Shown piece by piece: positions 2,932 to 29,137 of a stretch of 64,000 nucleotides of DNA. The stretch lies in the NCBI GenBank assembly GCA_017499595.2, contig CM039008.1, positions 806,001-870,000 on the forward strand, in the 5' to 3' direction. The translations under genes were made by a program, and so were the position numbers. The notes below the pieces were generated by a model. The model saw nothing but the letters and a program-made list of their open reading frames with translations. It made no database searches and had not been told where the DNA came from. Origin of the DNA: Psilocybe cubensis (Eukaryota). Numbering within the stretch: position 1 is the stretch's first letter; the number at the start of each line of letters is the position of its first letter.

Positions 2932-4435
2932 GAGATTCACCTTGGTTGGTAGAAAGAGATAATGAAATAAAAAGGTACCCCGAATAGAAGAAGCATGCAT
3001 TTAGAAATTAGAGACACCCCTAGTGAATGGACTTTGACAGATTTTGAGCTGGGAGTATGATTTTCTCTAGGGCTAATCTCATGAATCCCGTAGGATATGT
3101 ATCTGTTCCCTTAAATTTTCTCTAACGGCAAGTCCCCTCCTAGTTGGGAAATGTCATCAACAACCGGTCAAACCTTAGGCCTTATCGATTTAAGTAATTT
3201 AAGGCAGGGGCCGTATAAACCAAGCTTGACAGTAGTGTTTTGAGTACAGATATTTTCTCAAAGTTGAAGTAACATACATTACCCTATATTTTATTCCAAA
3301 TCCTGTGGTCTAATAATGTATCTGCATATCCGCTGTCCCGAGTCGACCCAGGTACAAAATATTCATTCCGCCATCCGACTAAATGGCTCGCTTGACTACT
3401 AACCACCAAAGGTTATATGTAATCTCCTGACTTACGTTACGATCCATACGTTTATGTCACGGTACGGTGATCATCCAGCCAGCCATTACCCGTGGATTTC
3501 CTCGTAGAAAAGTTGAAGTAACGCAACTATGCAACGAAGCTCCGAGTAGGCAACTTTAGTAGAATGAAAGGAGTTATCGAAGAGCATCAAATTTGGCCGC
3601 CGAACATCGAGTTTTACTTGCACGTACATAGTACCTTTGACGAATGTCCCTCCTTGGTCGTTCCACATTTATTTTAGAGGCCTTGAAAATTTACTTTCAC
3701 AGGATTACGAATCGGACATTTACGCGGTCCAGACAAGTGTCAAGCGGGCATTTCTCGACTCACAGATCAGAAGCGTGGAGAAAAGGGTGTTGTCAGCAAC
3801 GTGACGACCGCTATGTGCCGTGGCGATGCTTCTATTCTATAGTGGCAGCTGTTGCTCACTCCCACCAACCACTTTTGGCTTAACGACTTCTTTTATATAC
3901 CCCAGAATAATTGTTCACAACCCTCACGAAATACTTTACGCAGTCTTAGTTTCTTCAAAAGGGCCCACCCCTACCGCTCCTTCATCTTCCAATTTTCTCG
4001 TCCCTTCAGAAGGTCCAAAGGTACCATGCTTCCAGTTCGACTGCCATGACGAAAAGCATATTGACCAGCCATGCGTTATGTAGGAGTGGCGAGCTCTCTA
4101 AGCTGTGGATTCAGACTGCCAGGCCAACCCCCAGTTTTGTCTCGTTTTAGTTTCAGCCACTGCCCTGTTCCAGTCAATCCGTAGGATATAAATTACGCTC
4201 ACGACCTCGTTGTAAACTCGCCTCACAAGTTAAACAGATCTTCTAAAGCTTCTTAGAGCTCGCCTTTCTAGCACCTGTCCTCTTAACGCCAATACGATTC
4301 AGACCAACCTCTATCTCTAACTGTAGAAGTCCTTACCTCCCGGTAAACCACACCCCTTATACCCAACTACAACCGACACACCTTTACCTCGCTCTTCACC
4401 CATTTTTGTTCCTTCCATTCCATAACACACCTACA

Positions 4436-5950
4436 ATGCAGTCCTTAGACCTCGTAGACTTTCCAGAGGAGTTGATAGAAGGTATCCTATCGCACTGCGT
4501 TATTGCTGCCATTACTCAGCCATCCCGCCCTTCATGGCATCAATCTGGACCTTCTTCAACACCGTCGCAGGCCATACGTGGCCGACTAGCACCATTACTC
4601 GTCTGTAGAAAATTCCTCAGGATCGCAACTCCTCTATACTACCACACTGTACACGTTCTTTCATCGGCTCAACTGCACCGCCTTCTATTGGATGCACTGC
4701 TACCAAGCCCCGCTCTGGCCCTCCACATTCGCCGCATCGTCTTTGCCGGGATATGGGCCGAGGGTGGTGAAATTCTTCGGATGTGTGAAGGGTCCATCAA
4801 ATTCCTCGATATTACTCTGGATTCCACACAGCTTTCGGGCGCAAGTGGGCCAATTCGTGACCTTGACGCCGAAGAATTTTGCGAGGGCCTGAAGGAGCTC
4901 ACAGCTTTGACCCACATCGTCATTCGTAAACCTAATGATGTGTACATCACGAGGCCTAAGCCCCGTTATGTATTATCAGAAATCGCGAAAGCGATGAACA
5001 GTTGGGAACACCTGGTACGGTAGTTGTTCGTTTTGCATCGTCCCTCTAACGAATATTTCCCCTGTATAGGAATACGCTAACATCGCTTTTCGTGCGTCCG
5101 ACGACTCGGGCACATTGCTCCATGGCTCTGTTGAAGCTCAGTCCTCCCGTGGGGCACACATCCAACATGGGCCTATCACTGCTCTTACGCAATCTCTGAG
5201 CACCCGCCCTAATTTGCAAACCTTCTGTACGCTTCTCCCGAGTGTGTGGAACGAGGTTATCCTTCGAGTGAGCGCAAACCCTTCACTCGAACGTATCATC
5301 CTAGGTGATGGCCACTCCCAGAACATCCGGTCAAGCCCCTTCACGAACTCCCGGTCGTCGACACCTACCTGGTCCTCTAAAGACCATTACGCGGGGCCTG
5401 TTAGTGTTGGTTTGCCTCCATCTTGGCCTCATTTTGAAATGGCTACTTCTGGAGTTATGGGGACGGGACTTTTCATGTTGCAGGCCAAAAAGCACCCGAG
5501 GTTGACAGAGTTGATCAGGGCTGGAACGTGCGTATTTTTTTTTGGTTTTATCAAATCTTTCGTTGTGAGCAGTGGCTAACAATTTTTTCCTTTTCGATAA
5601 ACAGTTCCATCACTCGGCCACGAGCGCAGACACTGGATCACAGCAGCCCTCCTCTGCCCATTATTAAGCCCCATGTCCAGGGGCCATCGACGCCCACGCA
5701 GGCTCCTGTTTCCATCCGTCGGGCGTCATATTCTTCCCCAACGAATGCGGTTATCTCAAATCGTGTTCCACGTGCACCAATTAGCAATATACCCTCCCGC
5801 GCTGAAGGTTCCGGTTCAAATTTCCGCCATCATCCACAGGGACATGGCTTATACCCACAACCCCATGAGACCACAGCTGTACTATCGCATCCCTGTCAGG
5901 CATCAGTTGGCTCAAGCCGCAGCCAAACCTCTGTGGCTTGTTCAAATTAA
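4436..5950 (+). CDS. Uncharacterised protein with F-box-like N-terminus and disordered Ser/Pro-rich C-terminus, about 3 exons
   Basis: MQSLDLVDFPEELIEGILSHC has an F-box-like (L/F)PxE(L/I) start, followed by LLVCRKFLRIATPLYY. Three ORF blocks (4406-5023, 5115-5579, 5528-5950) can be joined by GT-AG introns (first intron 5015-5069). Confidence 0.7.
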
Positions 5951-6476: not shown

Positions 6477-9400
6477 CTGTACCCGACCCTGAATATGGCC
6501 ATTTCGGAATGTTCTTCAAATTGCGAGCGCCTTGCCAAACCGTTTGCTACAATTCTTTTTGAAAAACGTCGGCGTACATCTTAACTTTAACATATAAAAT
6601 TTTCAGATTTTTTGAGTGTTTTGAGGAAGGGCAATGAATATTTTTCTACCGAAACCCCAAAATGTGGCTTTACACGGCAACCAGCCAGGCGTGGGAATCT
6701 TGGCATTATTGACCGCAGTCGATGCTCGCGATAAGGATTCTCACCTTTTCTACGCAGTCATCATCAACGTTCTTGCTCCCTCGTCCATTTAACACCAATC
6801 GGCTAAAGGTAACACTTTGTTTGTACATTTTTCATATGAAATAGCCACTATTTATGAGTTTTACGTCTAGGATACCGTCTTGCACCAACATCTTCAAGGT
6901 TGATAAGTGGTGGGTCAGCTGCCTCAACCGTTGGGGGCTCAGCTTGAGCATCGTTGTTGTTGCGAAGGGATGTTGGATTTGGTTGATGATGGGCTGGTGG
7001 AGGCTGAGGTTCTTCAGGTGCGATATATACAATCATCCTTATCCTTTTCCACTCTTCATCAAAAGCCACTGTTGCCAGTCCCTGATCCAAATCAGCATCA
7101 TCATCAATGTGAGTCTCAGTAACAGCTCGTCTGGTCACCCTTTTCCTGCCCCCTCCCCTTCCACGTATATGAACTTGTGCTCGGACTTTTGCTGCAGCTA
7201 TTTCTTCAGCCCGCTTTACCTTTTCTGCAGCCTTTTCTGCAGCCTTTGCCTCTCGCTCCTTTTTCTTTTTCTCTTTCTCTACTTCCTTTTCAGTATCTCG
7301 CCTCTGCTTCTCTGCCTCTCGCTCTGCTCGCTTTGAAGCCTGTTCTGCCATTCTAACCTCTAGTGCAGCCTCCTTCTCCGCATCATCAATTGCCTTCCGC
7401 CTTGCCTTTAGTATTTTACCTGCTTCTTTTAACATTGCTTTCCAGCCCTGTCGCCACTCAGCCTCTGCAAGTTCATTGAGGTTCTCGGTACTAGTCATAT
7501 GGCGGGGATTTGATGATGAGTAAGTCTTCTTTCTAGTAGAATCCCGGTGATATAAGAGTTGTCGGAGGCGCTCATTCTCCTTTACCATAATTGTTTTTGT
7601 TGCATGGTCCCGTTCGATTTGGATTTGCATATCATCGAGTAGTTTTCGCAGTTGTGATATTTGTAATCGTAGTTCAGGGCGTCCGGCCGTATGAGAGAGT
7701 GAAGGAGGTAATCCAATTAAGCGATATCGACTTGAAACAGATGATGCTGAAGACATAGTCGAGAGTATAGTAGGTGCCGCCTCAGACTGTGTGCCTATAC
7801 TGTGCTCACTTGGTGTAGACTGTGTTGTATCTGATGTAGTGTCTGATTAATTGTATGTAAAAAAATGATACATTGACTTACCTGGCACAATCTCGAGAAG
7901 TGGAGTAAGATCAGATGTAACGGGTAGAGCAGCCTGAGTTGTTGTGTTTTTGGATGGCTCGTATGCTTCTAATGGAATAATTCCCGGATTGATAGGCCAG
8001 ATGCCGGTTTTTGCAAATGCAGAAATAATTGTAGACCTTTTGAATGCCTTTTCTCGTGCAGTGTGGTAATGTCGGAGAAAGTTAAACTTGGTAACAGGAA
8101 TGCCGTCGCGTGTTAACCGGTTTACCAGTGATTTCCAGCTATTGGATAACGGGCTGAAAGCACCAACATCACAAGGCTGCAACACATGGGTAGTATGGGA
8201 AGGGAGGCAAACAATGACAATCTTGTTCCGTTCTGCAAAGCGGCAAAGCTTGAAAGTGCAGTGTGAGTTGTGACCATCAAGTATAAGCAACCGGTACCCT
8301 CCAGATGTGTTGCGCTCTTCTGATTTTGGATGAAAATCCCGCTCTAGCCACATGCTTCCAAGCTCTTTATCAGTCCACCCATTTTCCGAAATAGATAAAC
8401 TGTATTAAATGTATAAAATATCTGAGTTTGCATTATATACAATATAACAGAAAGTCTACCTAGCGTTAGATGGATTATCCTTTCCCCATTCCAATATACG
8501 CCGCTTTGCTTGATAGATAACTGATGGCGAAAGTGATGTGCCATCAGCACAAATGGTTTCAATAATAGTCACCATTTCACGGTTCCCATTTTCAACTTGT
8601 TGTACATTTTTCTGTGTTTTGTCAACAATTGCAGAAACAGCTTTTCCAACGCCAAGTTGTATTCCTTTTTCATCTGAGTTATAGATGTTGCTTGGTATGA
8701 TATCATATTCCTAAATCAAGGAGATCTTTGAATTATGTCATATCTAGGGATGATATTTTTACATGCCTCGATTAGATCTTTGATCATCACAAAAAACTCT
8801 CCAACAACTGTCGGATTCAAAGAGCGGGCCCGACATTCCTCAAGTGCAGAGGTTTTTTTGATTTTAAGATCAGTATGTCGTTCCAAAAACTTCCGGGGCC
8901 AGTTGATACCAATTTTCTGTTGTGATATTTCCTAAAAAATAGTACAGTATAAGTAACAGATTACCAATCACAGCACATACAATATAACAAAATAGCACTT
9001 ACTGAAGCATATTCCCGAAGCATGTCCTGAGTTACAGGAAACCCCCGTCGTCCTAATGTCTTTGCCCAATCAACTAGAATACTTTCTTCGGCATCTGAAA
9101 GTGCACGTTCGCCTGCATGTGCATCACGTTTGGTTTTGACTCCATTTAGCCGATTAGTCAACATTCCACGCTTGACACTGTAAATGCGACAGGCCTCCCG
9201 GATTGACAGTGTGTGCTGACCATTAGACTTTAAAGGTGAGGACATAATGGCCTGAATAGCTTCTTGAATCCGATTTTCTACAGTATTATTGATAAGATCT
9301 GGGATGTCATCATTGGTAGAATCATGTGGAGAAACAGGAGAGGTTGTAGACATTCTGTGAGTAGTTGAGGAAGAAAAGCGAGTACAGCTGATTTCTAGTA

Positions 9401-10222
9401 GCTACTGACAGTGTATCCTACTTAGTTATTATATACTAGGGGTGGAATTAAAGGAGGACATACTTCGGACTTTTTATGGCATTTTGTATGATTCTTCCAC
9501 TTTTCCGAGTGCTATAACTTGGTGAGATGGTGGTTCTATCATTCAAAAATTGGTATTCAATGTCATAGGACATTGCAAAACACAAACGCGCCTTCAATTT
9601 CTGCCGATCTTTAGCCGTTCTGAAGAACTTCTTTCAATGTTGAAGGTGTTCAAAATTAGCTACTTTTTACTGATTGTCATATTTCAAGCCTAAAAAAATC
9701 GCAAAAAATAAGAGAAGCGAGATTGTGGTACCTTGAAGTGTTATCACTGTAGATCAAGTCATTGTTTGCCGCAATTTTTCCTCATCTTCTCCGAATACTG
9801 CATACAATATGCATATGTTTAAATAGGCAAATCAGTCAAGTCATGCACTTAATTTCCAATTCTCGGAATATTCTCTGGAGATATCTACTTGGAATCGAAT
9901 GTATATTGTAGCCAGGGCTATATATGACCGACGTATACTGTTTTTGTGTCTGCTCAGCGCAGTTGTTGTGTTTGACCAAGTCGATAATTATGGATTAGAC
10001 GTGAGAATGATTAGCAAATCAATGGTGATGGTGAAATCTCACGGTGTATTGGCAAGATTGTGGCAGCAATACTTACTGCCTTGCTCTAAAAGTTTCTGAT
10101 GTGGTGTAGAAGTACCACAAGAGCAGTAATACACAAAAAGATTGAAAGAAATTGCTATACAACTCGTCAAAATTGCTCAGTGGCCATTTTCCGGGGTTGG
10201 CCGGTTTCAGGGTCGGGTACAG
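6477..10222 (-). mobile_element. Fot1/pogo-like (Tc1/mariner superfamily) DNA transposon, full length, 3746 bp
   Basis: Perfect 17-bp terminal inverted repeats CTGTACCCGACCCTGAA (6477-6493 and reverse complement at 10206-10222), TA dinucleotides on both flanks (6475-6476, 10223-10224), and an internal transposase gene. Confidence 0.93.
6848..9353 (-). CDS. pogo/Fot1-type DD35D transposase (HTH-psq + CENP-B HTH + DDE_1 + long charged C-terminal helix), about 755-760 aa, 5 exons
   Basis: Exons 9353-9003, 8931-8767, 8710-8460, 8399-7882 and about 7842 (or 7830)-6848 join in one frame. Motifs: SIREACRIYSV (HTH), LSDAEESILVDW, NIYNSDEKG, SENGWTD, LLILDGHNSH and HVLQPCDVGAF, with 35 residues between the second and third Asp. 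Confidence 0.9.
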
Positions 10223-10600
10223 TACGTCCAGCAGTGTTGCCACCAATTTCCACACGGCACTCTGTCCCGTTCATTCGCTCGGGTAATACTTTTAGGACCT
10301 TAATCTCGTCAGGAGTCGCCAGTTCCGCCGGTGTCGGTTGCCACTGTTGACATGTGCCATATCCGGTGCCGAAATTGGCACACCACAATCTGGAGAGTCC
10401 ACACCTATCCACAGTGCTGCGATTGTCCAATGTGATACCATCGAATTCTAATACCCTGTTGACTATCGGCTAATGTATACTTACTGACAGGTCAATGAAC
10501 GCCACTGTTGAAGACTTCCAGGACCCTGGGATTTAAGTTTGTGATATTTTTCTAATATATAGGGAAGATATGGATCGGAAAGACGACGCTTCTGCCCGCA

Positions 10601-12745
10601 ATGTCGTACGCGTTGGACATGGTTTCTCACACATCTGTGATGCCCGCCGCTGCATCCCTTGCGGTACTTCTCTGCATTCTCTATTATGCTGTATCCATGG
10701 TGCAAGGGAAGCGTCTTCCTCCTGGCCCCCGACGCTTACCATTGATTGGTAACGCTCATCAGATGCCTAAGGGCCATCCCTGGCTGAAGTTTACCGAGTG
10801 GAAGAAGACCTACGGTGCGTCTTCTTGACATAGAGCTACCGCAGAGGTTTGATAATATTTTTTTACTTTCAGGAAATATCATACATGTCGATATTCTGGG
10901 CAAGCCGCACATAATTCTCAACTCAGCCAGGGTCGCGAAAGAGCTGTTGGACAAGCGCTCGTCTATTTACTCTGATCGACCGCACTTCGTAAGTAGTAAC
11001 CGACTTGTGCCGTCTGTAATGAAAGCTGATTTTCGGTGAATTCTGCTATTATATAGGTTTTTGCAGGTGATCTGTGAGTAAAGATATTCTTCTCTCGACG
11101 TGGACAAAGCCCAATTGTATTTGATTGTAGTGTACACTACGATGAACCCTTCGCCCTTCAGCCATACGGTGACAATTGGAGAAGACAACGTCGACTCGTA
11201 GCTCAGGATTTCAGTCTTGGGATGACCCCACGATATTACTCTTTGCAAGAGAAGGAGGCTGCCTCCTTGGTGCGCACATTAATGCAGAGGCCGGAAAGAT
11301 TGTTCCCGGAAGTTAAGCTGTAAGTATCCTCTTGTGATTTTTCGGTACACTATTTATCGTAGATGACAGGCGAATAGCAATCATTATTATGAGAGTGACA
11401 TATGGATATTATATTCAATCCGAAGACGACCCTTACTTGACTGTGGTTTTGGCTGCAATGACGAATTTCAGCAAGGCAACAGCGCCTGGTGCCTTCTTGG
11501 TTGACTTCGTCCCTGCGTGTGCGTCCTTACGTTGATTTTCTTACTATTGACTGACGTTCGAACCATGTCTGTTTCTACCAGTAAAGCATATGCCACGTTG
11601 GATGCCCGGCTCAGGTTTTTTGAAAATAGCTGAGGAGTGGAACAAAATCTTCTTTGATTCAACTATGAATATCTTCGATTGGTGTAAGAGCAATCTCGTA
11701 CGTTGTTTTTATTAATTTGCTTGCATTGCTGTATCTTGACGCCTACCTCGTTTTACAGGATACAGGAAAATCTCTTATGCCTAATCTCTGCGGAAGGTAT
11801 CTACAAGATGCGAACGGGAAAATGTCTAAAGAGGATGAGAAGACGTTGCTTTGGGGGGCTTCTTGTGTTTTCGGAGGTGGTTTGGATACTGTGAGTTTAT
11901 CCGACACTCCCTTAACATTTTGAAGCGTCCTTAACATTACATGGCATGGATAGAATATGTCCTCAGCTTTGACGTTTTACATGGCAATGCTCCTTTATCC
12001 CGAAGTACAGGCAAAAGCGCAGGCAGAAATAGACTCTGTCATCGGAAAGGATAGATTGCCAACTATCGCGGATAAGCCAGACCTACCCTATATCAGAAGC
12101 ATCTTGGCAGAAACATACCGTTGGAGCCCTGCTGCCCCACTTGGTCGGTTTTTCCACGTTAACCACTTTTTAGACTAAGCTGACTAGAGTCATCAAGGAA
12201 TTCCTCATGCCGTGACCCAGGACGATGTCTACGACGGATACGATATTCCTAAAGGAGCCACTATTCTTCCCAATGTTTGGTACGTCCTATCATTCTGAAC
12301 CGAAATGTTAGCTTCTATCGTTTGTTAATCACGTCAGCAGGGGTATGCTTCATGACCCAGAAGTCTATCCTCGGCCAATGGAATTTGATCCAGAACGATA
12401 CAATGGACTGGATTCAGAGATGGTGAAGGTGACAAGCCTTGTATTTGGATTTGGTAGGCGCGTTTGCCCCGGTATTTATTTCGCGGAAGGGACTCTCTTC
12501 GCAATCATTGCAACTACTCTGGCTACCTGTGATATCCTGCCCGGTCTTGATGAGCATGGAAACGAAGTGCTCCCAACTTACTCCTATACCCCAGGAACAC
12601 TCACGTACGTGTTATTTCGCTGTGATGTTCTGAATACTGGCTTAACACAACGTGCAGTACTCCCGAGCCATTTACCCTCAGGCTGAAACCCCGCTCTTCT
12701 AGTTCCTTAGCGCTCCTGGCCGACATCCCACCAACAATAGAATGA
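10601..12745 (+). CDS. Cytochrome P450 monooxygenase (basidiomycete group I / CYP64-clan-like), multi-exon
   Basis: N-terminal anchor followed by LPPGPRRLPLIGN, I-helix GGGLDTN, K-helix ETYR, FDPERY, and heme-binding FGFGRRVCPG. The last exon ends ...DIPPTIE-TGA at 12745. Confidence 0.95.
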
Positions 12746-13073: not shown

Positions 13074-13737
13074 TTACTGCCAAGCGTTGGGATAACCCTA
13101 GATATCTCTGTGTCAGTGACACCGAGGAAACGTATTGGCAAATGTAAACTCACAGCTTCTCTGCAATATCTCGAAGCGCTGTTCCAGGAGTTCTGGTATT
13201 CATCTCCGGAGCAGTACTGTCCAAAGCAGGACCTAGTATCTGTGATCCATTGGTTGTTGGCACAGAGGCAGCGATAATCAAACGGTGAACATTCGTAGTT
13301 GTTTCTGAAGCAGTTATCTGAGGAGCATTCTGATATAGAGATATGTGAGTCAAAACACTTTGATTGTGAGAGGGAGAAAACGTACGTGGCCAGGTATTGC
13401 CATTGCCAAAACCACCACCATTACCATAACCGCCACCATTGTTACCATTGTTTGGACCACCATTATTGCCATTCCCGAAGCCGCCGTTTCCGCCGTTGGG
13501 ACCACCGCCGCCACCGTACCCGCCACCGTTGTTACCAACTCCATTTCCTCCACCGTACCCTCCGCGGTTACCACCTCCTCCATTGTTGTTACCCCCACCA
13601 TATCCCCCATTGTTCCCACCTCCGTTGCCCCCATTGTTGCCACCGCCGTTTCCATCACGAGCATCGACAGATACGGCAGAGGCAGAGGCAGAGATGATAG
13701 CAGCCAAAACAGTGACAGAGAGCGTTGCAAAATGCAT
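13074..13737 (-). CDS. Small secreted protein (183 aa): signal peptide + Gly/Asn-rich repeat region + C-terminal CFEM domain
   Basis: Exons 13737-13386, 13329-13154 and 13097-13074 give MHFATLSVTVLAAIISASASA...DAR-DGNGGGNNGG...WPQCSSDNCFRNNYECSPFDYRCLCANNQWITDTRSCFGQYCSGDEYQNSWNSASRYCREAGYPNAWQ*. The 8 Cys fit CFEM spacing (PxC..C..C-x3-D-x2-CxC-x11-C-x4-C-x15-C). Confidence 0.85.
13395..13655 (-). repeat. Coding low-complexity repeat (GGN/AAY codons; GGGNNGG and GYGGG units)
   Basis: Imperfect tandem CCACC/CCATTGTT units on the + strand, encoding the Gly/Asn-rich segment of the CFEM gene. Confidence 0.85.
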
Positions 13738-15534
13738 GATGAGTGAGCTGTCGAGTAGTATTGTGTAGTGCAACTTGTGAGAAGTGATTGTTTAGAGGTG
13801 GGACGGCTGGAAATAACATTTCATGGAAGATTTTATACCTGGCGAACGTTAGGAGAATAATTTAGAAAGGAGGGTGATTGGAACATAGACGTCCTAGAAG
13901 ATAGTGTATTTGCCATTGAACCAGACTGCATGACGCAATATCAATAGGAGAATTGAGGCAGAGTAGCTCGATTCAAAATCGGTCTCGACGGTTGAGTACG
14001 CCTGTCTCTGTGTCACAACGTCATGAAGTGTAGCAAGTTGTTATATAGGAGGTTTGATCTTTATGCTTGAGGGCCGAGGTAGTCAAGGGGCCTATTTGCA
14101 CTGTTTTTGGTCTCCTAGTTCCAAATCCTGTGTTGAGGATGTGACAATGGTTCAGACAGACCCAGCCGCTAGCGCGCGCCGTGATTATAGACTCCACGGA
14201 TATGGCCGAGCGTTTTCCCAATTGACCACGATGTCCGAAATACTACAAAATCATAGGAAGGATACAAAGATATGCTGAAGTTCGTTGCGTTGGGCATGTA
14301 GTACGATTAATATGGTAGCCCGTTCAATTAGTCATTGTCTGAGGATAAATGACGTGAAGCCATCATGGTGCCCGAAGTGTATTTGTGCAATGCAAGGGCT
14401 GGGCACGACTTGTTCAATGATGTGTAATAGGTCTGCTGCTGAATGACATAACCCAGGTCTTCTGTGTACAAGAGGGAGAACTGGAAAAAGAGCATAAAGA
14501 GGGCGCTATAATCAACCTCAATGCGCCTGGGCATGTTTGGAATCAACCAGAGAATGTCCCGCCGATCGACAATGAGAAGGGCATATGAGTAACTCGATTG
14601 GTGCACCCAAATCGGAAGCGCGACTTCAAAGACGATTGGCAAAACTACAAGCAGATCACTGAGAGCACTGCACACAGTACCACTCCAACGCGTTTAACAG
14701 CGATGCAGAGCCATTCGCGAACGAATCGACCTTGTTTCTACTTTCAGTCAGTGAGTAATCGAGTCGTGGCCCTATTCAGCACCAGAGAAGCAGAGAAGAC
14801 TGTCCATACACCACAAATGCTCCTTTGATTGTGGAGGCGAGTTAGGATGCGTTCCAGTGCGTCTGTGAGACCAAAACCTTCTCATGTCTACCGCTGCAAG
14901 CTTGACGCGAGAAATACTGACTAGATTCGAAGGTTCCGTCTTTTGTAGGTAGTAAATGAACTATAATCATTTAGCCTTTGAGTCACTAGAACGCTGCAAT
15001 GCCTGCACTAGCCGCATAGAGTCCCAGTAGAGTCCTAAGAATCAACAGTCCAAGAAAATCTTGAATTACGGCGAGTAAAAAGGTTTCTGGTCAAGAGTTT
15101 GAAGAAGTCGATGGATTATGTGTTATTGGAGATGATCGAGTCGCTGGGAGATGGTGGTCAGTGATCAAGGGGCGGCGCTACTCCTGCCCTTTGTTTTATG
15201 GACACGTGAAATGGCACAGAATTACTGACACGTGGTACTTGTTCTTCGACAACCAGTTTCCATTTAGTTTTCATAGTAGGCAAGCCTGAAGAAAGCAACT
15301 CCCCGGCTTCAAATATCTCCGATCAGATTATTGGACTGCTGCATTCAATAAACAAGTATGTACGAATATATCCTGAGGATAAAATCATCAAGTAGATATT
15401 ATTTCCGTTAGATAAATCCCAATTGCAACCAATTTGGCGGATAAAATACCCTGTGCGGCATAGATCTACCACTGTGGAAGGTTGTTGAGCTAAGCTAAGT
15501 TCAGTGCATAATTGAATCATCACCTTCTAAACCA

Positions 15535-16236
15535 TCAAGCCGATATTGGATGCCTCCATTTGAGTTCGTGTCCATTGGCCATTGTAGGCTCAAGGAATCC
15601 GCGAAATATCCATGGCCGTTTATCTTCTCCTTCACAAGGAGATTGATCCTGAGACCATCGCATTCCATACCCTTCCTCAACCCTCACTTCATATACTAGT
15701 ATCTGATGCGGGAGCCAGTGCAGATTTCTCCAAGTTGCGTTATCCATGACCTTCCTGAATAATGCGAGGGATTTCTCATTGATAGAAGAAACTGGACCTG
15801 AAGCAGTCCCCCACCACCCTGAGCTGCGTTTGCGCTTATCTGTCTCAGAGTCATCTGATGGTGGTGGCTGAGACCGATGTGAATGCTTTGACCAGGCACG
15901 CGATCCTGCTGTGAGCCCGGCGCTGTTTGGGACGAGATAAGCTGCTAGACAGGTGTCAAGCGAGGGCGGAGTGGATCCCAATGCTGAACCCGTGGTGTAG
16001 GCCAAGCCATGGGCGAGATGTAGAAACAATGGGCTATCTGTATCTTCCAAGTCATCAATCGCTAAATTTGACGAATCTAAATCTCCATCTGCGAGATGTG
16101 TTTTGCCCAAAGCCTTTGCAACGCGAGCACGCAGTTTTGAAGCCTCAGGCAGTTCTTCAAGCCCAAAGCAATGAGGATCGTTAAGAAAAGAAAGATCTGA
16201 GGAGCTATTCTGTTCAATCTTATCAAGCTGATCCAT
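15535..16236 (-). CDS. Intronless 233-aa conserved hypothetical protein, resembling the C-terminal domain of ASCH-domain proteins (possible nuclease/toxin-like fold)
   Basis: Single uninterrupted ORF with motifs GLTAGSRAWSKHSHR, GWWG, WRNLHWLP, YEVRVEEGYGMRWS and FRGFLEP...GHELKWRH. The resemblance is recalled from plant ASCH-protein C-termini and was not searched. Confidence 0.75.
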   Translation of the reverse strand: MDQLDKIEQNSSSDLSFLNDPHCFGLEELPEASKLRARVAKALGKTHLADGDLDSSNLAIDDLEDTDSPLFLHLAHGLAYTTGSALGSTPPSLDTCLAAYLVPNSAGLTAGSRAWSKHSHRSQPPPSDDSETDKRKRSSGWWGTASGPVSSINEKSLALFRKVMDNATWRNLHWLPHQILVYEVRVEEGYGMRWSQDQSPCEGEDKRPWIFRGFLEPTMANGHELKWRHPISA

Positions 16237-17615: not shown

Positions 17616-20600
17616 ATGTCGGATGCTACAGTCCTTCCTCAAGGTGCCGGCTATGGTGTTGGTGCGTCTACGCCTGCGTTTGCTCTTTGGATAGCAATGT
17701 TGACTAGATTCCGTTAATTCAACTGAGTAGTCGTCGGTAAGTTTTCTTATTACACATGCAACGTATGTGTGCCTTAACTTACTCTTTCTCTAGGCATTGG
17801 GTTGTTTTTCAGCGCCTTCATGTTATGTATCACGGCCATCCAAGCTCGATATACCGCATTCTCGCCAAAAAACTCTGAAGAGTTTACCAGTGCTTCAAGA
17901 AGCGTCAAACCTGGATTGATCGCTTCTGGTATTGTCTCAGCATGGACATGGGCGGCTACTTTAGTATGTCATACTGCCTATTGTTCTGCGATCTTTTTCT
18001 GATTTTAGGATTCTCGCGCAGCTTCAAAGTAGTGCAGTGGCTTACAAGTTTGGTTCGTTCGGGAACTTTGGGGACTAGTGCCGTTATCCATACTGATGAT
18101 CTTCACTATTCAGGCATCAGTGGACCTTGGTGGTACGGAGGTATGAAAATGATTTCTGGCCAATGTTATATCTTCTGCTGACGCTCTCTACTTTCCTATA
18201 GCTGGTGCCACCGTTCAAATATTGCTCTTCGCCATGGTATCTGCATTCACTTTCCCAGTGTATGGAATGAATATGAATCTATTTTTACAGTTAGCCGCAA
18301 AATTGAAGCTCAATGCCCCCTATGCGCACACATGGCTTGAAATTGTTCAAGCCCGCTGGGGGAAGCTTGCTCATGGGGTGTTCATGTTCTTTGGGTAAAC
18401 CCTCTATCATCCCTCTTCCGGGAAAATTCTCTAACGAACGGACAGTCTTGCGACCAATGTCATTGTCAGCTCCATGTTGATCCTCGGAGGCTCTGCAACC
18501 GTAACCGACTTGACGGGAATGAATACGATTGCCGTAAAATCAATCTTATTTTTTCTTCTACAGCTGTCCTGATAGTAATGTCATGCAGGCATGTTTCTTG
18601 ATTCCTCTGGGAGTTGCCATTTATGTTGTAGTCGGTGGGATGCGATCCACGCTGTTGTGTGATTAGTGAGTCTTTCTATGTCATTTGTCTGAATATGTCT
18701 GATATATTACAATAGTACGCATACTGCCGTTCTGTTTGCAATCATCTTGGTCAGTCTTATTGAAATATACTCTTCCGTTATCTCATCTGAACTTTCGAAT
18801 ATTAATGGAAAAATCAACTTGCAGACTTTCATCTTTACTGTCTATGCCACGAGCGATAAAATTGGTAGTCCGATGAAGATGCACGAACTTCTCAGCGCCG
18901 CCTCAGAAGCTAATCCAGTCCCGGGGAATGCCCACGGATCGTACCTCACCATACGGTCCAAGAATGGTCTGATCTTTGGTGTCATCAACATCATCGGGAA
19001 CTTTGCCACGGTATTTCAAGACCAGGCCTACTGGCAGCGTGCTATTGCCAGTCGTCCTGCAAGCACAGTCAAGGCGTATCTTCTTGGAGGAATCGCATGG
19101 TTCGCTATCCCGTTCACGTTTGCGACAACGCTGGGACTCGCAGCTGTGGCACTGAGAGGAGATCCGGAGATGAAAGTGTTGAGCCCAGCCGATGTGTCGG
19201 CTGGATTGCCCGCTGCTGCTGCCGCCGCCGCGCTGCTTGGACAAGGGGGTGCTGCGGCCCTTTTGGTTCTTCTATTTTTGGCTGTCACGAGCGCATGCTC
19301 TGCTGAGCTCATCGCTGTGTCGTCTCTCTTAACATACGATGTTTACAAGGTATTTTTATTCCACTATTCTATTGTGCCATGACTATATTGTTCTACAGAC
19401 CTACATTAACCCCAAAGCAACTGAAGAGCAGATTCTACGCGTCGGACATGCAGGAGTGCGTATGATGCCATTGATTCATTATCTGTGTCTAACGCATGTA
19501 AAACTGTGCTACAGGTTGCATTCTATGCCCTTGTATGTGGCCTCTGCGGCTTGATCTTCTTTTACATCGGTGTATCGATGGGATGGCTCTATGTGCGTGT
19601 ACTTTCGGCATGATGCTTCTGGAGTTGCACTCAAGAGTTATGCAGACTTTCATGGGAGTCATTCTCGGGTCTGGTGTCGCGCCTATTGCTCTGTGCATCA
19701 CCTGGAGCAAAGCTAACAAGTGGGGCTGCATTGGTGGATCTATTGCTGGTTTCGTGGCTGGTATCGTTGCGTGGCTGGTTACAACCTCAACTCTGAATGA
19801 TGGTGTGATCAATGTAGTTGTAAGTAAACCTGCATTAGATCAATTACCTTTCATTGGCTAATTATGCATGCACTTCTAACAGACCAGTGGAGGTATACAT
19901 ATATCCTTCATACAGACGTGGGTTATTCGTTAACGTAATTCTATTTTAGGCGACTTTGAGATGTTGGCTGGCAATCTTGCCTCAATAGGTGTAGGAGCTA
20001 TCGTTGCAACCGTTTCATCTCTCATCGTAAGCTCTTTCGTATTTCGAGTCATTCATTGAGCTAGAGCATATCATCGCTTCCAGTGGCCTGACAACTTTGA
20101 CTGGGAAGCCACTCGGGCTATCAACAGACCTGTACCTCCTGCTGCTAAAATCGTGGACGAGAAAGGCGACGACGAAAGCGACAAGAAAGAACACGAAGTT
20201 AATGTAAAGGGTTCAGTGGCTGGAGATTCATTTGATGCTCGTGAAGAAGAGGATGAGCTTGATCCCGTTGCACTTAAGAAGGCCTTTAAATTTGCGACAT
20301 GGTCGTCACTCGGGCTGGTATGTATATTTGCAACTCGTATCATATCCTCACGCTCAAGATCTCATCCAATCTTCTTAGTTTGTGGTCCTTATATTGATTA
20401 TCCCCCTCCCATTGTTCTTCTCTCATCATATATATGGTGTCGGTGGTTTGACGGCATGGGTGTCAGTTGGTATTGCTTGGACCTTCTTGTCGGCTATTGC
20501 AGTGGTTATCTATCCCCTTTACGAAAGTCGGAGCGCTCTCACCGAAATCACCGTTGGGATCTATAAGGTGTGCCACTATTTAGTCGTTCATTTTCATCAG

Positions 20601-20692
20601 TGTTCATTGAAATTTATTCTCTTTCATAGGACCTGTTCACGAAGCAAAGTGGAAAGTATGTCGGTGCTGCTCCTCCCACTTCAGTCGCGTGA
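17616..20692 (+). CDS. DUR3: Urea active transporter (sodium:solute symporter family), many exons including micro-exons
   Basis: MSDATVLPQGAGYGVVVGIG, SEEFTSASRSVKPGLIASGIVSAWTWAATL, GNFATVFQDQAYWQRAIAS, AVTSACSAELIAVSSLLTYDVY and WPDNFDWEATR are characteristic DUR3 motifs. Confidence 0.93.
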
Positions 20693-21886
20693 AGTAGGGC
20701 ACTTTTCCATTCACCATTCCCTGGTTGTCTAATTACAACCTATCATCTTTCGACTCAGTATCAACCCTAAGCCGTTCAAAGGACACTCAGCCATCACTAG
20801 CACTTGTGGAATGGTCAACTATTCCGAAGTTCGGAACGCCATAATGGAAAATGTGGGATACACACGAAGCTTTCGAATTGATTCATGATAATGTTTATTT
20901 ACGATGTGTTTATCTTTTTTGTACGGATATAATGTCATTTGGATTGAACGCAAATGTGGGTCTCCGTTCAATGGTGCAGGTTCAGCGTTGTCTATTGTGA
21001 GGACATCTCACACTGATAATTGGCTTGAAGTAAGCATGGCTTGGCACTGCTTGGAAACGGCTTAGCTGGCGAGGAATACCTGGAACTTTGTGCCAGTCTG
21101 TAGCATGTTCGTAGGCGGATTCGATAGCAAATGTAATAACGTAAAGTGAAGGCACCTGGGTCGTAGATAAGTCTGGAGTCTGGATGTCTCTACGAACCGG
21201 GGGTTTTAGCATTGTTGAAACTTCCCCATATGCATCAGAACCATCCTGACCGGTCCATGACCCCTAAGTGTGTAATAACCTGGGGTATCATGAACAGTGT
21301 TGTTATACGGATTTTCTAGTAGTTTCATATCATGCATCGACTGTCAAACAACCTTCGAGAAATTACGCTGTAATTGTACTCGCTACTACTCATATAATAT
21401 TCATATCAAAACGATAGCTTGAACGTCCCCCTCTAAGCTCCGTCATCACATGTGTCCTCCCCTGCAATGTTTTCCAGACTCCGAGATACAGGGTAGGTAA
21501 ACCCTGACCCACAAGCATTAGACTGATTGGTATCGGTGCCATTCTGTGAGTGGAATTAAATCTGAGACTGTGATATAACCACAGAAACTTCCGATGCTTT
21601 GAATTGTGGAGATGAGACATTTTACCCCACTGCAATGAGTGTCGTTCTACCTACTCATGATGAGCACTCCCGCCGTGTTGCCGCCATGCCGAATCATAGA
21701 GGGCGGGTCATAACCTAAACGGGGATATACTCGTCATCTTGGAACGACAACGTGACTCGCCAAGCATACCAAGGGGGACCGCGACACACTTATAAAGGGC
21801 GTCCGCCTTGGCCCTCACAGCCTTTTGTCCCCGTCCCCGCTTTCTAAGCTATTTATCGCCCTTTCTCATATCTCGGGAACAGCTGA

Positions 21887-23949
21887 ATGGGAGAATCTTT
21901 CGCTTTATCTGCTCATGATGCCTCTAGCAATGTTCTTCCACAACCAACACCCACTCTTGTTGCTGAAGATGACGACGAACCCCCTAGTAGTGGGACGCCC
22001 CACAATCGGCAGGCTCAAATGACTGAAAGGTCGAACGATGTATCTACGCACTCTCAACTTAACGACCATGATATCCGCGAGAAAGATTTTGCTCGTGTCG
22101 ACAGTATCTCGGTCAAGCAGGTCGCCTCGGGGCACCATGCATCAGATCTTACAGAAGAGGCGAAGTCCAGTCGCGACATCGTTAACGTAGTTGATTTGGA
22201 GAAGGATGAGCACGCTGAAGAAGGTGCACCACGTCGGCGCCGTCGAAGGTTCAGGGTGGTGAAAATGTCTCCTACTGCACGCTTCCGGGCGCTTATTGCC
22301 TCAACTCGTTCCACCGGCCCCCAGCCTACATACCGCGCTTCTGCCATGGCGATGTTGCGATACTCTCCTCTCAATATTCTTTTGGTCTTCATTCCAGTCT
22401 CATGGGCCCTTCATCATGCTCATCAAAGTCCTACTTTGATCTTCGTTTTCTCGAGTCTGGGAATTGTACCTCTTGCTGCCTTACTTGGTCTGGGTACGGA
22501 GCAGATTGCTCTTCGAACGACTCAAAGTGTCGGAGGACTTCTTAACGCTTCGCTGGGAAATCTCATTGAGATGATCATTTCTGGCATCGCTCTCAAACAG
22601 GTCCGTTAACACTTTTGTTTGGTTTGATATTTATCCTCATGCGCCTACTCTCAGTGTGAATTAGAAGTTGTTCAAAGCACACTGCTGGGCGGCCTGCTAA
22701 GCAATTTATTGCTTGTTCTGGGAATGGCCTTTGTTGGTACGAGAATCGCTTTGATTATTTGACGCATCATTAATCTATATGTTCTAGTCGGAGGCTTCCG
22801 TTTCCATCACCAACAGTTCCATCCTATGGTTGCGCAGCTTAACTCCTCTTTGCTAATAGTTTCAGTCATTTCGTTGACTATCCCGGCTGCCTTTGTGAGT
22901 CTCTGAAACGCTTTTCATTATGCATTGCTCATGCTTTCTTTTCGTAGCATCAATATCTTGAGAATCGACTTCCCTCTGGAACCGAACTCGACATAATTTT
23001 GGAACTAAGTCGCGTCAGCGCTATCATCTTGATATTAATGTTAGTGTTTGCCTTTTTCATTTTTTATAATCGTCTGATTTTGTCCATTCTTCCTCTCTCT
23101 AGCTATATCGCTTACTTGTTCTTCCAATTCTACTCGCACAACCATTTGTTCAAGGACACCATCCAAGAATACAGTGTATCTACCGGTTCTAGCACTTCTT
23201 CCAGTCGTAGCCGACGTTCCACAACACCTACCCTCCCCCTTCCTTCCATCGCCCCTTCCTCGGCATCAACAGCATCTATCACGTCGTCAACATCTTCGGA
23301 AGAAGAAGTCCAGAAAGTCAACACCGTCTCGGCGCTTATCCTTCTGGTCACCGTTACCGCCCTTGCATATGTGACTGCCGAATATCTAGTGGAATCACTA
23401 GAAGGTCTTGTCGCTGCGCATCCCTCCGTATCCAAAGAGTGGATCACACTTATCATCATTCCCATTATCGGCAATGCTGCTGAACACACCACAGCCGTTA
23501 TCGTCGCTAGTAAAGGCAAATTCGATTTGGCGATGAGTGTTGCTGTTGGCAGTTGTATCCAGATTGCACTATTTGTCATCCCTGTTTTGATTCTTGTCGC
23601 TTGGGGTATGGATAAACCGCTCACGCTTCTCTTTGACCCACTCGAGACAGTGGTACGTATTCATTCTATTGTTTAACTGTTGGAGTTATGGGTTTACTGA
23701 GCATCATATTAGGTGTTATTCTTATCTGTCTTGCTCGTCAAATTTTCCGTGGAAGATGGAAAATCGCATTGGATGAGTGGTATTGTTCTCATTGGTTAGT
23801 ACTATCATGCACCACTGCGTGTCATCCAACATAATCTAATCAAAACCTTTCCCTTAGCCGTATACGTGCTCATCGCAGTTGCATTTTGGCACTTCCCCGG
23901 TGACACCGTCAGGATTATCCAAGGTCAAGTTATCCAATGCTTCAAATAA
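21887..23949 (+). CDS. Ca2+/H+ exchanger (CAX/VCX1-like, CaCA superfamily)
   Basis: LNILLVFIPVSW, VGGLLNASLGNLIE (alpha-1 repeat), LLGGLLSNLLLVLGMAF, IIGNAAEH (alpha-2 repeat), VAVGSCIQIALFV and DGKSHWMSG. Confidence 0.92.
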
Positions 23950-24367
23950 GGCCGTCCGCCTTAAATATGGGAGAAATTGCCCAAACGTTTTTGCTATCAT
24001 GAATCGGCTGTTCCATCACCATTTCTATCATGATTATTTTACATTTGATGTTTCGTTTTCATTTGTCAATTTTCCCTTTATCCATCTTCCATCTTCTATG
24101 CCTACATCTGCCTACTCTACGAATACTGTACGATGATTTTAACGTTCGATGAAATGATGAAATATCGACATTATCTTTGTTAACTTGGGTATCTGGAACT
24201 TCAGAACAGATCCGTTCACAGAATTCAATACCGCCGACCGTGGCTCTATCAGCACAGCCACATTTAGACATCTAATCACCAATTGCGACAGGGGTACAAC
24301 TTAGGACGAATGAACTGACACTTCTGAACGTCGTCAGGAACAGTGACATTATCTTTTTAAGTTACAT

Positions 24368-25921
24368 TTAAGGGAAAGAAACTTTGCCTTCTTTGGCAGC
24401 AATTTTCGCAACGAATATCTTGGTCTCAGCCATAATCACCAAGCGACCGTCCCCTGCGAAGATCATGTTCGCAGACGTCGTTTCAATGAAAAACTTGCCC
24501 AGTAAAGTGCCTTCAGGTGACCACACTTGAACGCCATCTCCACAGCCAGCATAGACATTTCCCGCTGCGTCGACCTGCACGCCGTCAGGGATGCCAGTAT
24601 CGGTGTAAGCAAATATGCGCCTGTTGAAGAAGGCCTGTGATTTGGGGTCGACATCGAAAGCGTAGCTGGTGAGAAACGCGTATTTAGCTTATCATAGAAT
24701 TCTGTCACTGTAAAAATGGCCTACATCGTGGCTGGGGCAGTTTGATTATTTCCTAAAAAGCCGGAGTTGGCACCAGTGTCGGTCCTGTGTTTGACATAAT
24801 TCGAGTTGAAGGTCAACAGCAGGTTTCATGCATTCAAGCATTGATCACTCACACGTAGGCTGTATTCCCGTCTGGTGTAAACGCGATACCATTGCACTTA
24901 TCGAAATCTGTGGCTACTACGCGAACTGATCGTTTGGCCATGTCAAGTCGGTAGACTTGATTGCGCATCAACGGTTCTGGGCGGAAATGATTGAGAAACC
25001 CATATCTGTAACGCAGATTAGAAATCGATACGTCATATATTTAGCAAGAAAACTTACGTAGGATCAGTAAAGAAGAGGTCTCCTGTGACTGGATGGATCT
25101 TTATGTCGTTCAAAGAGTTAAATTGCCTCCCAAAGAAGTTGTCCAACAGTACGGTTACGTTGTGGGGCGCTTTGGGGTTGACGAGTGCAATGGACGGTGG
25201 CAACGGGCCGCGTCCGGATGTGATTAAGACAATAGAAGATCCTAGGGGGCCCGTTCCACCGTTCGTCATCTGAATTGTGTCCGGAAGGTCAAGCTGACAT
25301 GAGAGAGAGAAACACATATGTCAACAGTTAATGTCGGATTGAAAGAAATTAACCAAGTGCGCAGCAACGTTCTCACCTCAGTAACCGAAACGTTTACGGC
25401 TGCACCACTCCCAGGCTTCAGGCCTTGCAAAGCCTTTTCGACAGCCTGCATACTGATTTTCCCCACTTTGTTGTTGTGGTTTATGTCGCTATTTCCGAGG
25501 GCACCACCATCATTGCTCGCGAAGAAAACCTCGTCTGTGTCTGGCACATAAACGGGCGCTTCATGTGCAAAGGCGAAATCAGGATTTGAAGCGACTTCAT
25601 GAATGGAAGGATTAGGTCCCAAAATGTCGAGGAACGCCTCATCAAAGATCTGGATAAAGGGGGGTTTCCCTGAGGTGGGATTGAAGAACTGTGTAAAGGA
25701 CGAATTTCTGAATGGACCATTTGGTCCCAAGACTGCGAACGATTTAGGATCAATAAACTGAATGGAAGTTAAATTAGAGGATAAAGCTTATCGAAAAGTG
25801 ATGAACGTACGACAGATTGAGGTGGTGAACCGGGAGGCACAGGTTGTGGTGGCTGTCCAAACGTCCATGTGAGATGTTGGAAAATAATGGTCAAGGCGAC
25901 TTTAAACCAGCGATTCTTCAT
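24368..25921 (-). CDS. Secreted SMP-30/gluconolactonase-family lactonohydrolase (6-bladed propeller)
   Basis: Signal-like start MKNRWFKVALTIIF, then FAFAHEAPVYVP, QMTNGGTG, LLDNFFGRQFNSLNDI, FFTDP, CNGIAFTPDG and GIPDGVQVDAAGNVYAGCGDGVQVW. Confidence 0.9.
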
Positions 25922-26604
25922 TGGAGAATATGTCAGTGCACTAAAAGCAGCGAAGGTAGATTGATTTTAGAATTTTTCACTTACTTATATACCTTCAGAG
26001 GTGTCATGAGATGCGATTTGTTCACGGCATAACTCGAAGGGTGAATTGTTTTTATCAAGAACCAATACTATCCTTCATCCTTCTAGATCACCGACACGTG
26101 AGTTATTCTCTGGTGAGCGCATGACGAAATAGTTGACAATGTCATCTTCCAAGAGTTGAGCACTTGAGTACAAATTCCCATGCCACGCTTGGAAAAGGAG
26201 GCTTCCACCCAAAGGCTGTCGACAATCGCGTCACTTGATGCTACAGCTGCATTTAAACTGAAAGTAATAGCATTTATGGCTATTCGCCCGCAAGCCGAAT
26301 ATTTCTGTCATAAGCCTCCACCAAGCAAGTAGCTCAATGTGTTATAATTACACACCAGTAGACTGACGGCGAGGTGCCGTTGCTGAGAGGTTGAAGCGAC
26401 TGAGTTGTAGTTGAGGTTGGAGTTGGTTCCAGCTACATGTTATAATTTCGTGTGATAATCATATCCTTATGAAAGAACAAGAGTGTTCTCAGATCTTGTG
26501 AGAGTGGCATGGAAAGTTTATTAAGGTGAACCTCGAGTTAAACTTGAACGTTGTTTGCACATCCATCATCTTGCCTTTGAGGCGTGGGGAAATCATTAGT
26601 CAAT

Positions 26605-29050: not shown

Positions 29051-29137
29051 AAAATTTACCTGACATATCTTAAATTCTGATGAATGATGTAAGCCTCAAG
29101 TTTTAGATAAAGAAGCTTTGTAAATTCCTGATTACGT

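What the first reader, a model, noticed from the sequence alone, without database searches (positions are those of the whole stretch)
13074..13737. Hidden CFEM domain fused to a prion-like Gly/Asn repeat in a small secreted protein with no GPI or TM anchor
The ORF track misses this because the CFEM domain appears only after splicing. The architecture is signal peptide, short pro-piece ending DAR, about 90 aa of almost pure G/N/Y/F repeats, then an 8-Cys CFEM domain at the extreme C-terminus that keeps the Asp (SPFDYRCLC) which coordinates heme iron in Candida CFEM hemophores (Csa2/Rbt5/Pga7). Typical CFEM proteins have the domain N-terminal, followed by an S/T stalk plus GPI or TM helices, so this layout is inverted. 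The G/N-rich tract could self-assemble (amyloid-, gel- or wall-matrix-forming) and display a heme-binding or effector domain (inference).
Basis: partly seen in the sequence, partly recalled or inferred. Interest (0 to 1): 0.72.

Follow-up and report, generated by a model that had tools for sequence, protein, structure and literature searches.

The report
Anchorless glycine-rich mushroom CFEM protein
This is a real, spliced mushroom gene for a small secreted protein in which a floppy glycine-rich arm carries a well-known fungal surface domain that has lost its usual membrane anchor; it is an unstudied variant of a known family, most likely a cell-wall or matrix protein.

Summary
The gene is real. 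It has three exons on the minus strand (13737-13074) and codes for 183 aa. Both 56-nt introns are skipped in contigs of two runs from two studies and kept in a DNA-like run. Exon 2 is a CFEM domain: Pfam 32.5 bits, cut-off 22; closest solved fold Csa2, Z 6.1, rmsd 1.9. An 87-aa Gly/Asn tract precedes it, and there is no GPI or TM tail.

The layout recurs in Flammula and Galerina, so this is a small agaric subfamily. It is not an inversion: both introns sit at the same codons as in the genome's GPI-type CFEM genes, which points to a tract expansion plus loss of the stalk and anchor.

The Asp is family consensus, kept in 9 of 9 CFEM matches in this genome, so it is no sign of heme binding. Asn-richness is not conserved (0% in Galerina). 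Hydrophobins already show a signal + G/N tract + 8-Cys layout, with amyloid and wall-binding roles proposed (PMC2253510).

Best reading: a loosely wall- or matrix-held protein with a flexible Gly arm (about 45%). The scan's earlier notes had no match.

The parts
13831..13837 (-). TATA-like box, 100 nt upstream of the ATG
   Evidence: pattern scan; function inferred. The X1 contig runs on upstream of it
13386..13737 (-). Exon 1: signal peptide, pro-piece, G/N tract, Trp-Pro before the domain
   Evidence: joint 13329/13386 in X1 and X2
13675..13737 (-). Probable signal peptide, aa 1 to about 21
   Evidence: hydropathy maximum 2.4; cleavage point by eye, SignalP not run
13657..13674 (-). Short pro-piece ending VDAR, a probable monobasic Kex2-type (LxxR-like) site
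   Evidence: VDAR here, LESR in Flammula, LDSR in Galerina; motif described in PMC8528282 and PMC13525654; cleavage inferred
13396..13656 (-). Gly/Asn low-complexity tract, aa 28-114 (51 G, 25 N, 6 aromatic)
   Evidence: no confident structure in a single-sequence model
13330..13385 (-). Intron 1, 56 nt, phase 1, in the codon between Pro and Cys1
   Evidence: skipped in X1 and X2; same position in L004, L005, L006
13154..13329 (-). Exon 2: the whole 8-Cys CFEM domain
   Evidence: Pfam PF05730 32.5 bits; AlphaFold2 pLDDT 86.6; Csa2 4y7s Z 6.1, rmsd 1.9, 58 aligned
13277..13279 (-). Codon of Asp135, the consensus Asp that corresponds to Csa2 Asp80
   Evidence: profile alignment to 4y7s; numbering inferred; present in 9 of 9 genome matches
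13098..13153 (-). Intron 2, 56 nt, phase 0, three codons after Cys8
   Evidence: skipped in X1 and X2; same position in L004, L005, L006
13074..13097 (-). Exon 3: 7 polar or aromatic residues and stop, where paralogues have a 54-75 aa S/T stalk with a hydrophobic end
   Evidence: a matching tail is allowed at the same distance in P0001
12973..13073 (-). Probable 3' untranslated region
   Evidence: the X1 contig ends at 12973; a contig end is not a mapped transcript end

Best explanation
A secreted, anchorless CFEM protein of a small agaric subfamily, derived from the GPI-anchored CFEM wall-protein gene type. SHOWN: spliced transcript, hydrophobic N-terminus, G/N tract, CFEM domain with a Csa2-like predicted fold, no anchor, same layout in two named agarics, shared intron positions. 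INFERRED: the signal peptide and the 6-residue pro-piece are removed in the secretory pathway, leaving a 156-aa, 15.4-kDa acidic protein (pI about 4.7). The Gly-rich arm stays disordered and, through its spaced Tyr/Phe residues, sticks loosely to wall or matrix polymers or to other copies, doing the job that the lost stalk and GPI anchor do in the paralogues. The disulfide-locked CFEM head is the binding part, with an unknown ligand (a wall component or a partner protein more likely than heme). Likely setting: hyphal surface or extracellular matrix.
For: Splicing in two studies. CFEM by HMM and fold. Same architecture in Flammula alnicola KAF8962127.1 and Galerina marginata KDR79206.1, with a 9-10 residue tail containing Pro and Trp in all three. 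Exon 2 is 66% identical in P0001, which also allows the same exon-3 peptide after a 56-nt intron; in the control the only 2 hits among 180,590 tests were this gene's own exon 3. Introns at the same codons as in L004-L006, whose exon 3 is 44-49% Ser/Thr with a hydrophobic end. Tract length and make-up vary (88, 39, 31 aa; Gly 58, 69, 26%; Asn 28, 18, 0%), as expected of a flexible arm. Precedent: class II hydrophobins carry G/N-type or D/P-type N-terminal extensions, with wall binding proposed (PMC2253510). CFEM proteins act in wall integrity (Ccw14, PMC4530338; CfmA-C as cited in PMC9684206).
Against: No localisation, binding, expression-stage or knockout data. The wall-binding role of hydrophobin extensions is itself only a hypothesis in PMC2253510. 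Only three other members were found, one of them a partial unspliced prediction. The Galerina tract is short and acidic and may not stick to anything. The direction of change (loss of the anchor) is inferred from the layout of the paralogues; the 8-row tree is unrooted and its key branch is unstarred (89/88). An Asp at P3 is reported as unfavourable for Kex2, and this gene has it.
Confidence: 0.45

Rival explanations
1. A freely diffusing secreted defence, signalling or interaction protein (Type I CFEM) in which the Gly tract is a passive spacer or a by-product of repeat expansion.
For: Type I anchorless CFEM proteins act as secreted effectors in plant pathogens (PMC13586796). Secreted CFEM genes of Coprinopsis are 527- to 1481-fold higher in vegetative mycelium and were proposed as defence proteins (PMC4082614). 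The tract is poorly conserved and shows tandem-duplication traces. The CFEM surface differs in charge between members (Lys+Arg 4 here, 10 in Flammula), as in fast-evolving interaction proteins.
Against: A Gly-rich tract is kept in all three full-length members. No processing site is visible between tract and domain. The defence label in Coprinopsis rests on resemblance and expression only.
Confidence: 0.25
2. A soluble hemophore like Csa2: the CFEM binds ferric heme through Asp135 and passes it to GPI-anchored paralogues such as those at L004-L007.
For: The Asp aligns with the Csa2 ligand, with an aromatic residue just before it in both. Csa2 is the best fold match and is also secreted in a relay with anchored partners (bioRxiv 10.64898/2026.05.08.723727). 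The domain has 10 aromatic residues.
Against: The Asp is in the family consensus and in 9 of 9 genome matches. Identity to Csa2 is 21-22%, and Csa2 was the only CFEM structure these searches returned, so the match is expected for any member. The match covers Csa2 61-121 only; the N-terminal segment that lies by the heme site (a Tyr36 lid is recalled, not seen) is replaced by the Gly tract. The Galerina member lacks the aromatic before the Asp. HGATAR sites upstream are not enriched: 2 in 1.76 kb against about 5 expected (weak test).
Confidence: 0.15
3. A functional amyloid: the G/N tract stacks into cross-beta fibrils that display the CFEM heads.
For: 28% Asn with spaced Tyr/Phe. The same idea was put forward for hydrophobin G/N extensions by analogy with Ure2p (PMC2253510).
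Against: 58% Gly and no Gln; high Gly is described as inhibiting beta-sheet and amyloid (PMC5703643). Asn is 0% in Galerina. No regular period among those tested against shuffles (3, 4, 5, 7, 9, 13), though periods 8 and 15 had the highest raw self-match and were not tested. A single-sequence model gave no order (pLDDT 39.9; weak evidence). PLAAC was not run.
Confidence: 0.12

Closest known systems
Type I (secreted, anchorless) CFEM proteins, PF05730, e.g. Candida albicans Csa2 (PDB 4Y7S)
   Same: Signal peptide, one 8-Cys CFEM with the consensus Asp, no GPI or TM; predicted fold matches (Z 6.1, rmsd 1.9, 58 aligned).
   Different: An 87-aa G/N tract lies between pro-piece and domain. Cys1-Cys2 spacing is 4 (consensus 3) and Cys2-Cys3 is 6 (consensus 8-12). 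22% identity. Heme binding untested.
Agaric signal-CFEM-S/T-GPI genes of the same genome (L004, L005, L006/L007)
   Same: Both introns at the same codons; Arg shortly before the Pro-x-Cys start; exon 3 begins with Gly.
   Different: 26-28% identity in the domain; they have no G/N tract and have a 54-75 aa S/T stalk with a hydrophobic end.
Uncharacterised proteins KAF8962127.1 (Flammula alnicola) and KDR79206.1 (Galerina marginata; UniRef name 'CFEM domain-containing protein')
   Same: Same order of parts: signal, LxxR-like site, Gly-rich tract, aromatic-Pro, CFEM, short Pro/Trp tail; 37-39% identity in the domain.
   Different: Shorter tracts (39 and 31 aa). The Galerina tract is G/D/Y-rich without Asn, and its domain has two extra Cys.
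Class II hydrophobins with G/N-rich N-terminal extensions (QID3, HCf-6/HCF6, Claviceps CFTH1 spacers, CmQHYD)
   Same: Signal + G/N tract + C-terminal 8-Cys domain; G/N and D/P-rich variants both occur; wall-binding and amyloid roles were proposed (PMC2253510, PMC7827705).
   Different: Different domain (beta-barrel hydrophobin, CC doublets) and ascomycete hosts. This protein has a helical CFEM and no hydrophobin Pfam hit. An analogy, not homology.

Membership tests
CFEM domain (PF05730) | HMM score over the curated cut-off | tested here: met
   32.5 bits against 22, E 8.9e-08
CFEM domain (PF05730) | Eight Cys with Pro-x-Cys start, Asp before Cys4, CxC, and spacings 9-14, 3-4, 15-16 | tested here: met
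   8 Cys; Cys4 onward spaced 1, 11, 4, 15; consensus from PMC4530338
CFEM domain (PF05730) | Exact consensus spacing of Cys1-Cys2 (3) and Cys2-Cys3 (8-12) | tested here: inconclusive
   4 and 6 here; 3 and 7 in Flammula. A deviation from the written pattern that the HMM and the fold model tolerate
CFEM domain (PF05730) | Helical-basket fold as in Csa2 | tested here: met
   Model pLDDT 86.6, four helices. 4y7s is the only chain with Z of 5 or more among 48,161 (Z 6.1, next 4.3); the tool warns that Z under 8 alone may be a common arrangement. Foldseek TMq 0.77 but E 6.8. Profile to 4y7s E 5.6e-08
Type I secreted CFEM proteins | Signal peptide, no TM helix, no GPI signal | tested here: met
   Hydropathy only; SignalP and GPI predictors not available; secretion not shown
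Type II GPI-anchored CFEM proteins | C-terminal S/T stalk and hydrophobic GPI signal | tested here: not met
   10 polar or aromatic residues after Cys8; mean hydropathy of the last 20 residues -1.37; splicing into the short exon 3 confirmed
CFEM hemophores (Csa2/Rbt5/Pga7) | Asp at the axial-ligand position | tested here: met
   not discriminating, 9 of 9 genome matches have it
CFEM hemophores (Csa2/Rbt5/Pga7) | Structured N-terminal segment next to the heme platform | tested here: inconclusive
CFEM hemophores (Csa2/Rbt5/Pga7) | Binds ferric heme (Soret about 406 nm) and is iron-regulated | not testable with these tools
   needs protein and expression data
Prion-like / functional amyloid domains | PLAAC-type prion score | not testable with these tools
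   PLAAC not available; composition only: G 51, N 25, Q 0 of 87
Prion-like / functional amyloid domains | Asn/Gln-richness conserved among homologues | tested here: not met
   Asn 28%, 18%, 0% in the three full-length members
Prion-like / functional amyloid domains | Forms cross-beta fibrils | not testable with these tools
   needs experiment
Hydrophobins with G/N extension | Hydrophobin Cys pattern with two CC doublets | tested here: not met
   no CC doublet, no hydrophobin Pfam hit, all-helical model

The most novel reading that the evidence does not exclude
An agaric CFEM lineage swapped covalent GPI anchoring for a self-associating Gly/Asn/aromatic arm, forming an extracellular gel or fibril mesh that displays many heme- or ligand-binding CFEM heads; that would be a matrix-held hemophore or adhesin scaffold in mushroom-forming fungi, convergent with the G/N-extended hydrophobins.
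Probability: 0.1. Interest if true: 0.7.

Novelty: new variant of a known kind. Interest (0 to 1): 0.35.

Why it matters
The functional CFEM studies listed in the review sections I read concern pathogens; this is a compact subfamily in mushroom-forming agarics that my searches did not find described. Its gene structure suggests a traceable change from an anchored wall protein to an anchorless one with a low-complexity arm. It offers a small test case for an old, untested idea: that G/N extensions on secreted 8-Cys fungal proteins hold them in the wall or make them assemble. It does not by itself open a new mechanism, and both headline claims (heme, amyloid) lack positive evidence.

Tried and rejected
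Word-based homologue search with the CFEM region, 68-219 aa: no candidate. With an alignment, 31-217 aa: 3 hits among 54 candidates, all already known. For 315-2000 aa: none among 8000 scored (weak). Lengths of 220-314 aa were not covered by the word searches, but one search had no length limit.

Of the 5 phmmer hits, P0003 was dropped as an unrelated Cys/Trp repeat protein, and P0004 was set aside as an unspliced ordinary-type CFEM with no Gly tract (read by eye). ESM Atlas gave only generic CFEM clusters (0.88 and 0.76, leads only). Single-sequence search of PDB sequences gave nothing under E 0.17. Foldseek gave no match at E 0.001 or better. The exon-1 protein matched only itself in the own genome (the search scores few candidates).

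The fold used the unspliced open frame, of which only aa 1-117 are real; it says little. Other splice acceptors (intron 1 at 68 nt; intron 2 at 46, 48, 77 or 82 nt) were rejected by the joints. No run is on record as RNA, and X8 and X9 of study P2 hold next to none of the words; neither is taken as evidence on expression. Contig depths were not used to rank genes.

A functional link to neighbours (P450, transposase remnants, transporters) has no support. Complex prediction was not run, since no binding is claimed. Look-ups of the scan's earlier notes gave nothing relevant.

Paper searches that found no description of this architecture; the term search in the 2026 review found no 'glycine', 'low complexity' or 'amyloid'. 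The CFEM section of PMC10282164 lies beyond the text held. No supplement was seen (that review's expression tables and the CLANS data of PMC13586796 may bear on novelty and expression).

Full report
Observation. The window lies in a 46.6-Mb, 21-contig genome; the closest named relatives of this protein are from Agaricineae. The minus strand at 13737-13074 holds a three-exon gene for 183 aa. Exon 1 codes for a hydrophobic N-terminus, a six-residue piece ending in VDAR and an 87-aa tract of 51 Gly, 25 Asn, 4 Tyr, 2 Phe, 2 Pro and three other residues. Exon 2 codes for all eight Cys. Exon 3 codes for seven residues and the stop. I laid 4 of the 9 runs listed. Contigs of X1 and X2, from two studies, skip exactly the two predicted 56-nt GT..AG introns; X3 shows no joint; X5 runs through unspliced. 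The tool only guesses that X1-X3 are RNA, but X1 also skips an intron of the neighbouring P450. No indels were seen in the tract; two single-base strain differences change aa 68 (Gly to Ser, X1) and aa 25 (Asp to Asn, X3).

The domain. Exon 2 scores 32.5 bits on Pfam CFEM (cut-off 22). An AlphaFold2 model from an 8-row alignment has pLDDT 86.6 and four helices. Among 48,161 solved chains the only match with Z of 5 or more is Csa2 (Z 6.1, rmsd 1.9, 58 residues, 22% identity; next 4.3). Foldseek ranked Csa2 sixth with E 6.8 but TMq 0.77. A profile of the alignment finds Csa2 at E 5.6e-08; that profile includes three ordinary CFEM paralogues. The first two Cys spacings (4 and 6) depart from the written consensus (3 and 8-12; PMC4530338). 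There is no hydrophobic C-terminus.

Relatives. phmmer over 1.84 billion representatives gave 5 hits at E 0.001 or better. Two are full-length proteins with the same order of parts: Flammula alnicola KAF8962127.1 (132 aa) and Galerina marginata KDR79206.1 (124 aa). P0001 is an unspliced prediction, 66% identical over exon 2, whose read-through allows the same exon-3 peptide after an intron of the same 56-nt length; in a control of 180,590 tests only this gene's own exon 3 passed. P0003 (unrelated repeat) and P0004 (ordinary type) were set aside. A search with an alignment of these members added none (3 of 54 candidates). The tracts are 88, 39 and 31 aa with 58, 69 and 26% Gly and 28, 18 and 0% Asn; the Galerina tract has 23% Asp. 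What is kept is a Gly-rich spacer with aromatic residues, an LxxR-like site before it and a short Pro/Trp tail. Asn-richness is not kept.

Origin. The genome has 9 CFEM matches. Only this one has a G/N tract upstream (28 of 30 residues against 4-6 in the other 8). In L004, L005 and L006 the two introns lie at the same codons as here: phase 1 between the Pro and Cys1, and phase 0 three codons after Cys8, followed by Gly. Their exon 3 is a 54-75 aa stalk of 44-49% Ser/Thr with a hydrophobic end (these paralogue splice models are predictions). L010-L012 look like the same anchored type by eye but with other intron positions; L007 is a near copy of L006; L009 was not resolved. So the domain has not moved to the other end. 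The simplest account is expansion of a Gly-rich stretch in exon 1 and replacement of the stalk and anchor by a 7-residue exon. The direction is inferred; the 8-row tree groups this protein with P0001, P0002 and P0005 at 89/88, unstarred and unrooted.

Heme. The Asp matches the Csa2 ligand (Asp80 per PMC13586796; numbering offset inferred). But it is in the family consensus and in 9 of 9 matches in this genome, so it cannot single out a hemophore. The structural match covers Csa2 61-121 and leaves out the N-terminal segment near the heme site; the Tyr36 lid is my recall of Nasser 2016, which I did not read. GATA-type sites upstream are not enriched (2 against about 5 expected; weak). I put this reading at 0.15.

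Self-assembly. The layout signal + G/N tract + 8-Cys domain is known from class II hydrophobins (QID3, HCF6, Claviceps spacers, CmQHYD), where G/N and D/P-rich forms both occur and where wall binding and Ure2p-like amyloid were already proposed (PMC2253510; PMC7827705). High Gly content is described as inhibiting beta-sheet and favouring hydrated disorder (PMC5703643). No significant period was found among those tested and a single-sequence model showed no order (weak). PLAAC could not be run. Loose, sticky association is more likely than fibrils (amyloid 0.12).

Mechanism. Best reading (0.45): after removal of the signal peptide and the pro-piece (LxxR-like site; PMC8528282; inferred, and the Asp at P3 is reported as unfavourable), a 15.4-kDa acidic protein is secreted. 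Its disordered arm holds it non-covalently in the wall or matrix in place of the lost anchor, and the CFEM head binds an unknown partner. Main rival (0.25): a diffusible defence or interaction protein with a passive spacer, as proposed for mycelium-specific CFEM genes of Coprinopsis (PMC4082614).

Comparison with what is known. It is a member of the CFEM family and fits the Type I secreted class (PMC13586796). It fails the Type II and hydrophobin tests. Hemophore and amyloid membership need experiments. One homologue is already labelled 'CFEM domain-containing protein' in UniRef. Searches found no description of this architecture, but the library lacks most subscription papers, the CFEM section of PMC10282164 lies beyond the held text, and I saw no supplements.

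What I saw of each paper. PMC13586796: abstract, sections 4, 9, the first part of 5, and passages. PMC4530338: parts 1-2 of 3 of the text. PMC2253510: passages and the first part of the Discussion. PMC7827705, PMC8528282, PMC13525654, PMC9684206, PMC8867779, PMC4082614, PMC5703643, bioRxiv 10.1101/550103 and 10.64898/2026.05.08.723727: passages only. PMC10282164: one table-of-contents line; its bioRxiv version 10.1101/2021.12.09.471732: a term search with no hit. Nasser 2016, Kulkarni 2003, Rauscher 2006 and Vaknin 2014: not read, known through these papers or recall.

Verdict. Observation confirmed; interpretation partly supported. A real, transcribed variant of a known family, conserved in at least two other agarics and undescribed as far as my searches reach, with a plausible evolutionary origin and no positive evidence yet for heme binding or amyloid. 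Interest 0.35.

Noticed in passing
window about 10570-12745 (+): A many-intron cytochrome P450 gene converges on the CFEM gene (Pfam p450 in three pieces); its intron 12605-12657 is skipped in run X1. No link to the CFEM gene was seen.
   Followed up: partly
window 7850-9401 (-): Pieces of a Tc5/pogo-type transposase (DDE_1, HTH_psq, HTH_Tnp_Tc5), probably a decayed element.
   Followed up: no
L006 (G000:C11:1736287-1739469) and L007 (G000:C12:1889833-1893015): The same CFEM gene and flanks on two contigs at 99.6% identity over 3.2 kb: a recent duplication or an assembly duplication.
   Followed up: no
window 13837-14100 and beyond: The spliced X1 contig continues without an intron more than 260 nt upstream of the TATA-like box: a longer 5' end, an overlapping transcript or an assembly merge.
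   Followed up: no
window 15535-16236 (-): A 233-aa open frame with no Pfam hit, the nearest long open frame upstream on the same strand.
   Followed up: no
window 18693-30692: Pfam hits for a sodium:solute symporter, a Na/Ca exchanger, an SMP-30/gluconolactonase, a fatty acid desaturase with cytochrome b5 domain and an MFS transporter; a weak F-box-like hit lies at 4247-5020. A mixed neighbourhood with no evident cluster.
   Followed up: no
P0005 (Galerina marginata KDR79206.1): Its CFEM has two extra Cys (one between Cys1 and Cys2, one after Cys8), which may form a fifth disulfide.
   Followed up: no
G000:C13 (L004, L005) and G000:C2 (L010-L012): The ordinary CFEM genes lie in loose groups: two within about 86 kb on C13 and three within about 50 kb on C2.
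   Followed up: no
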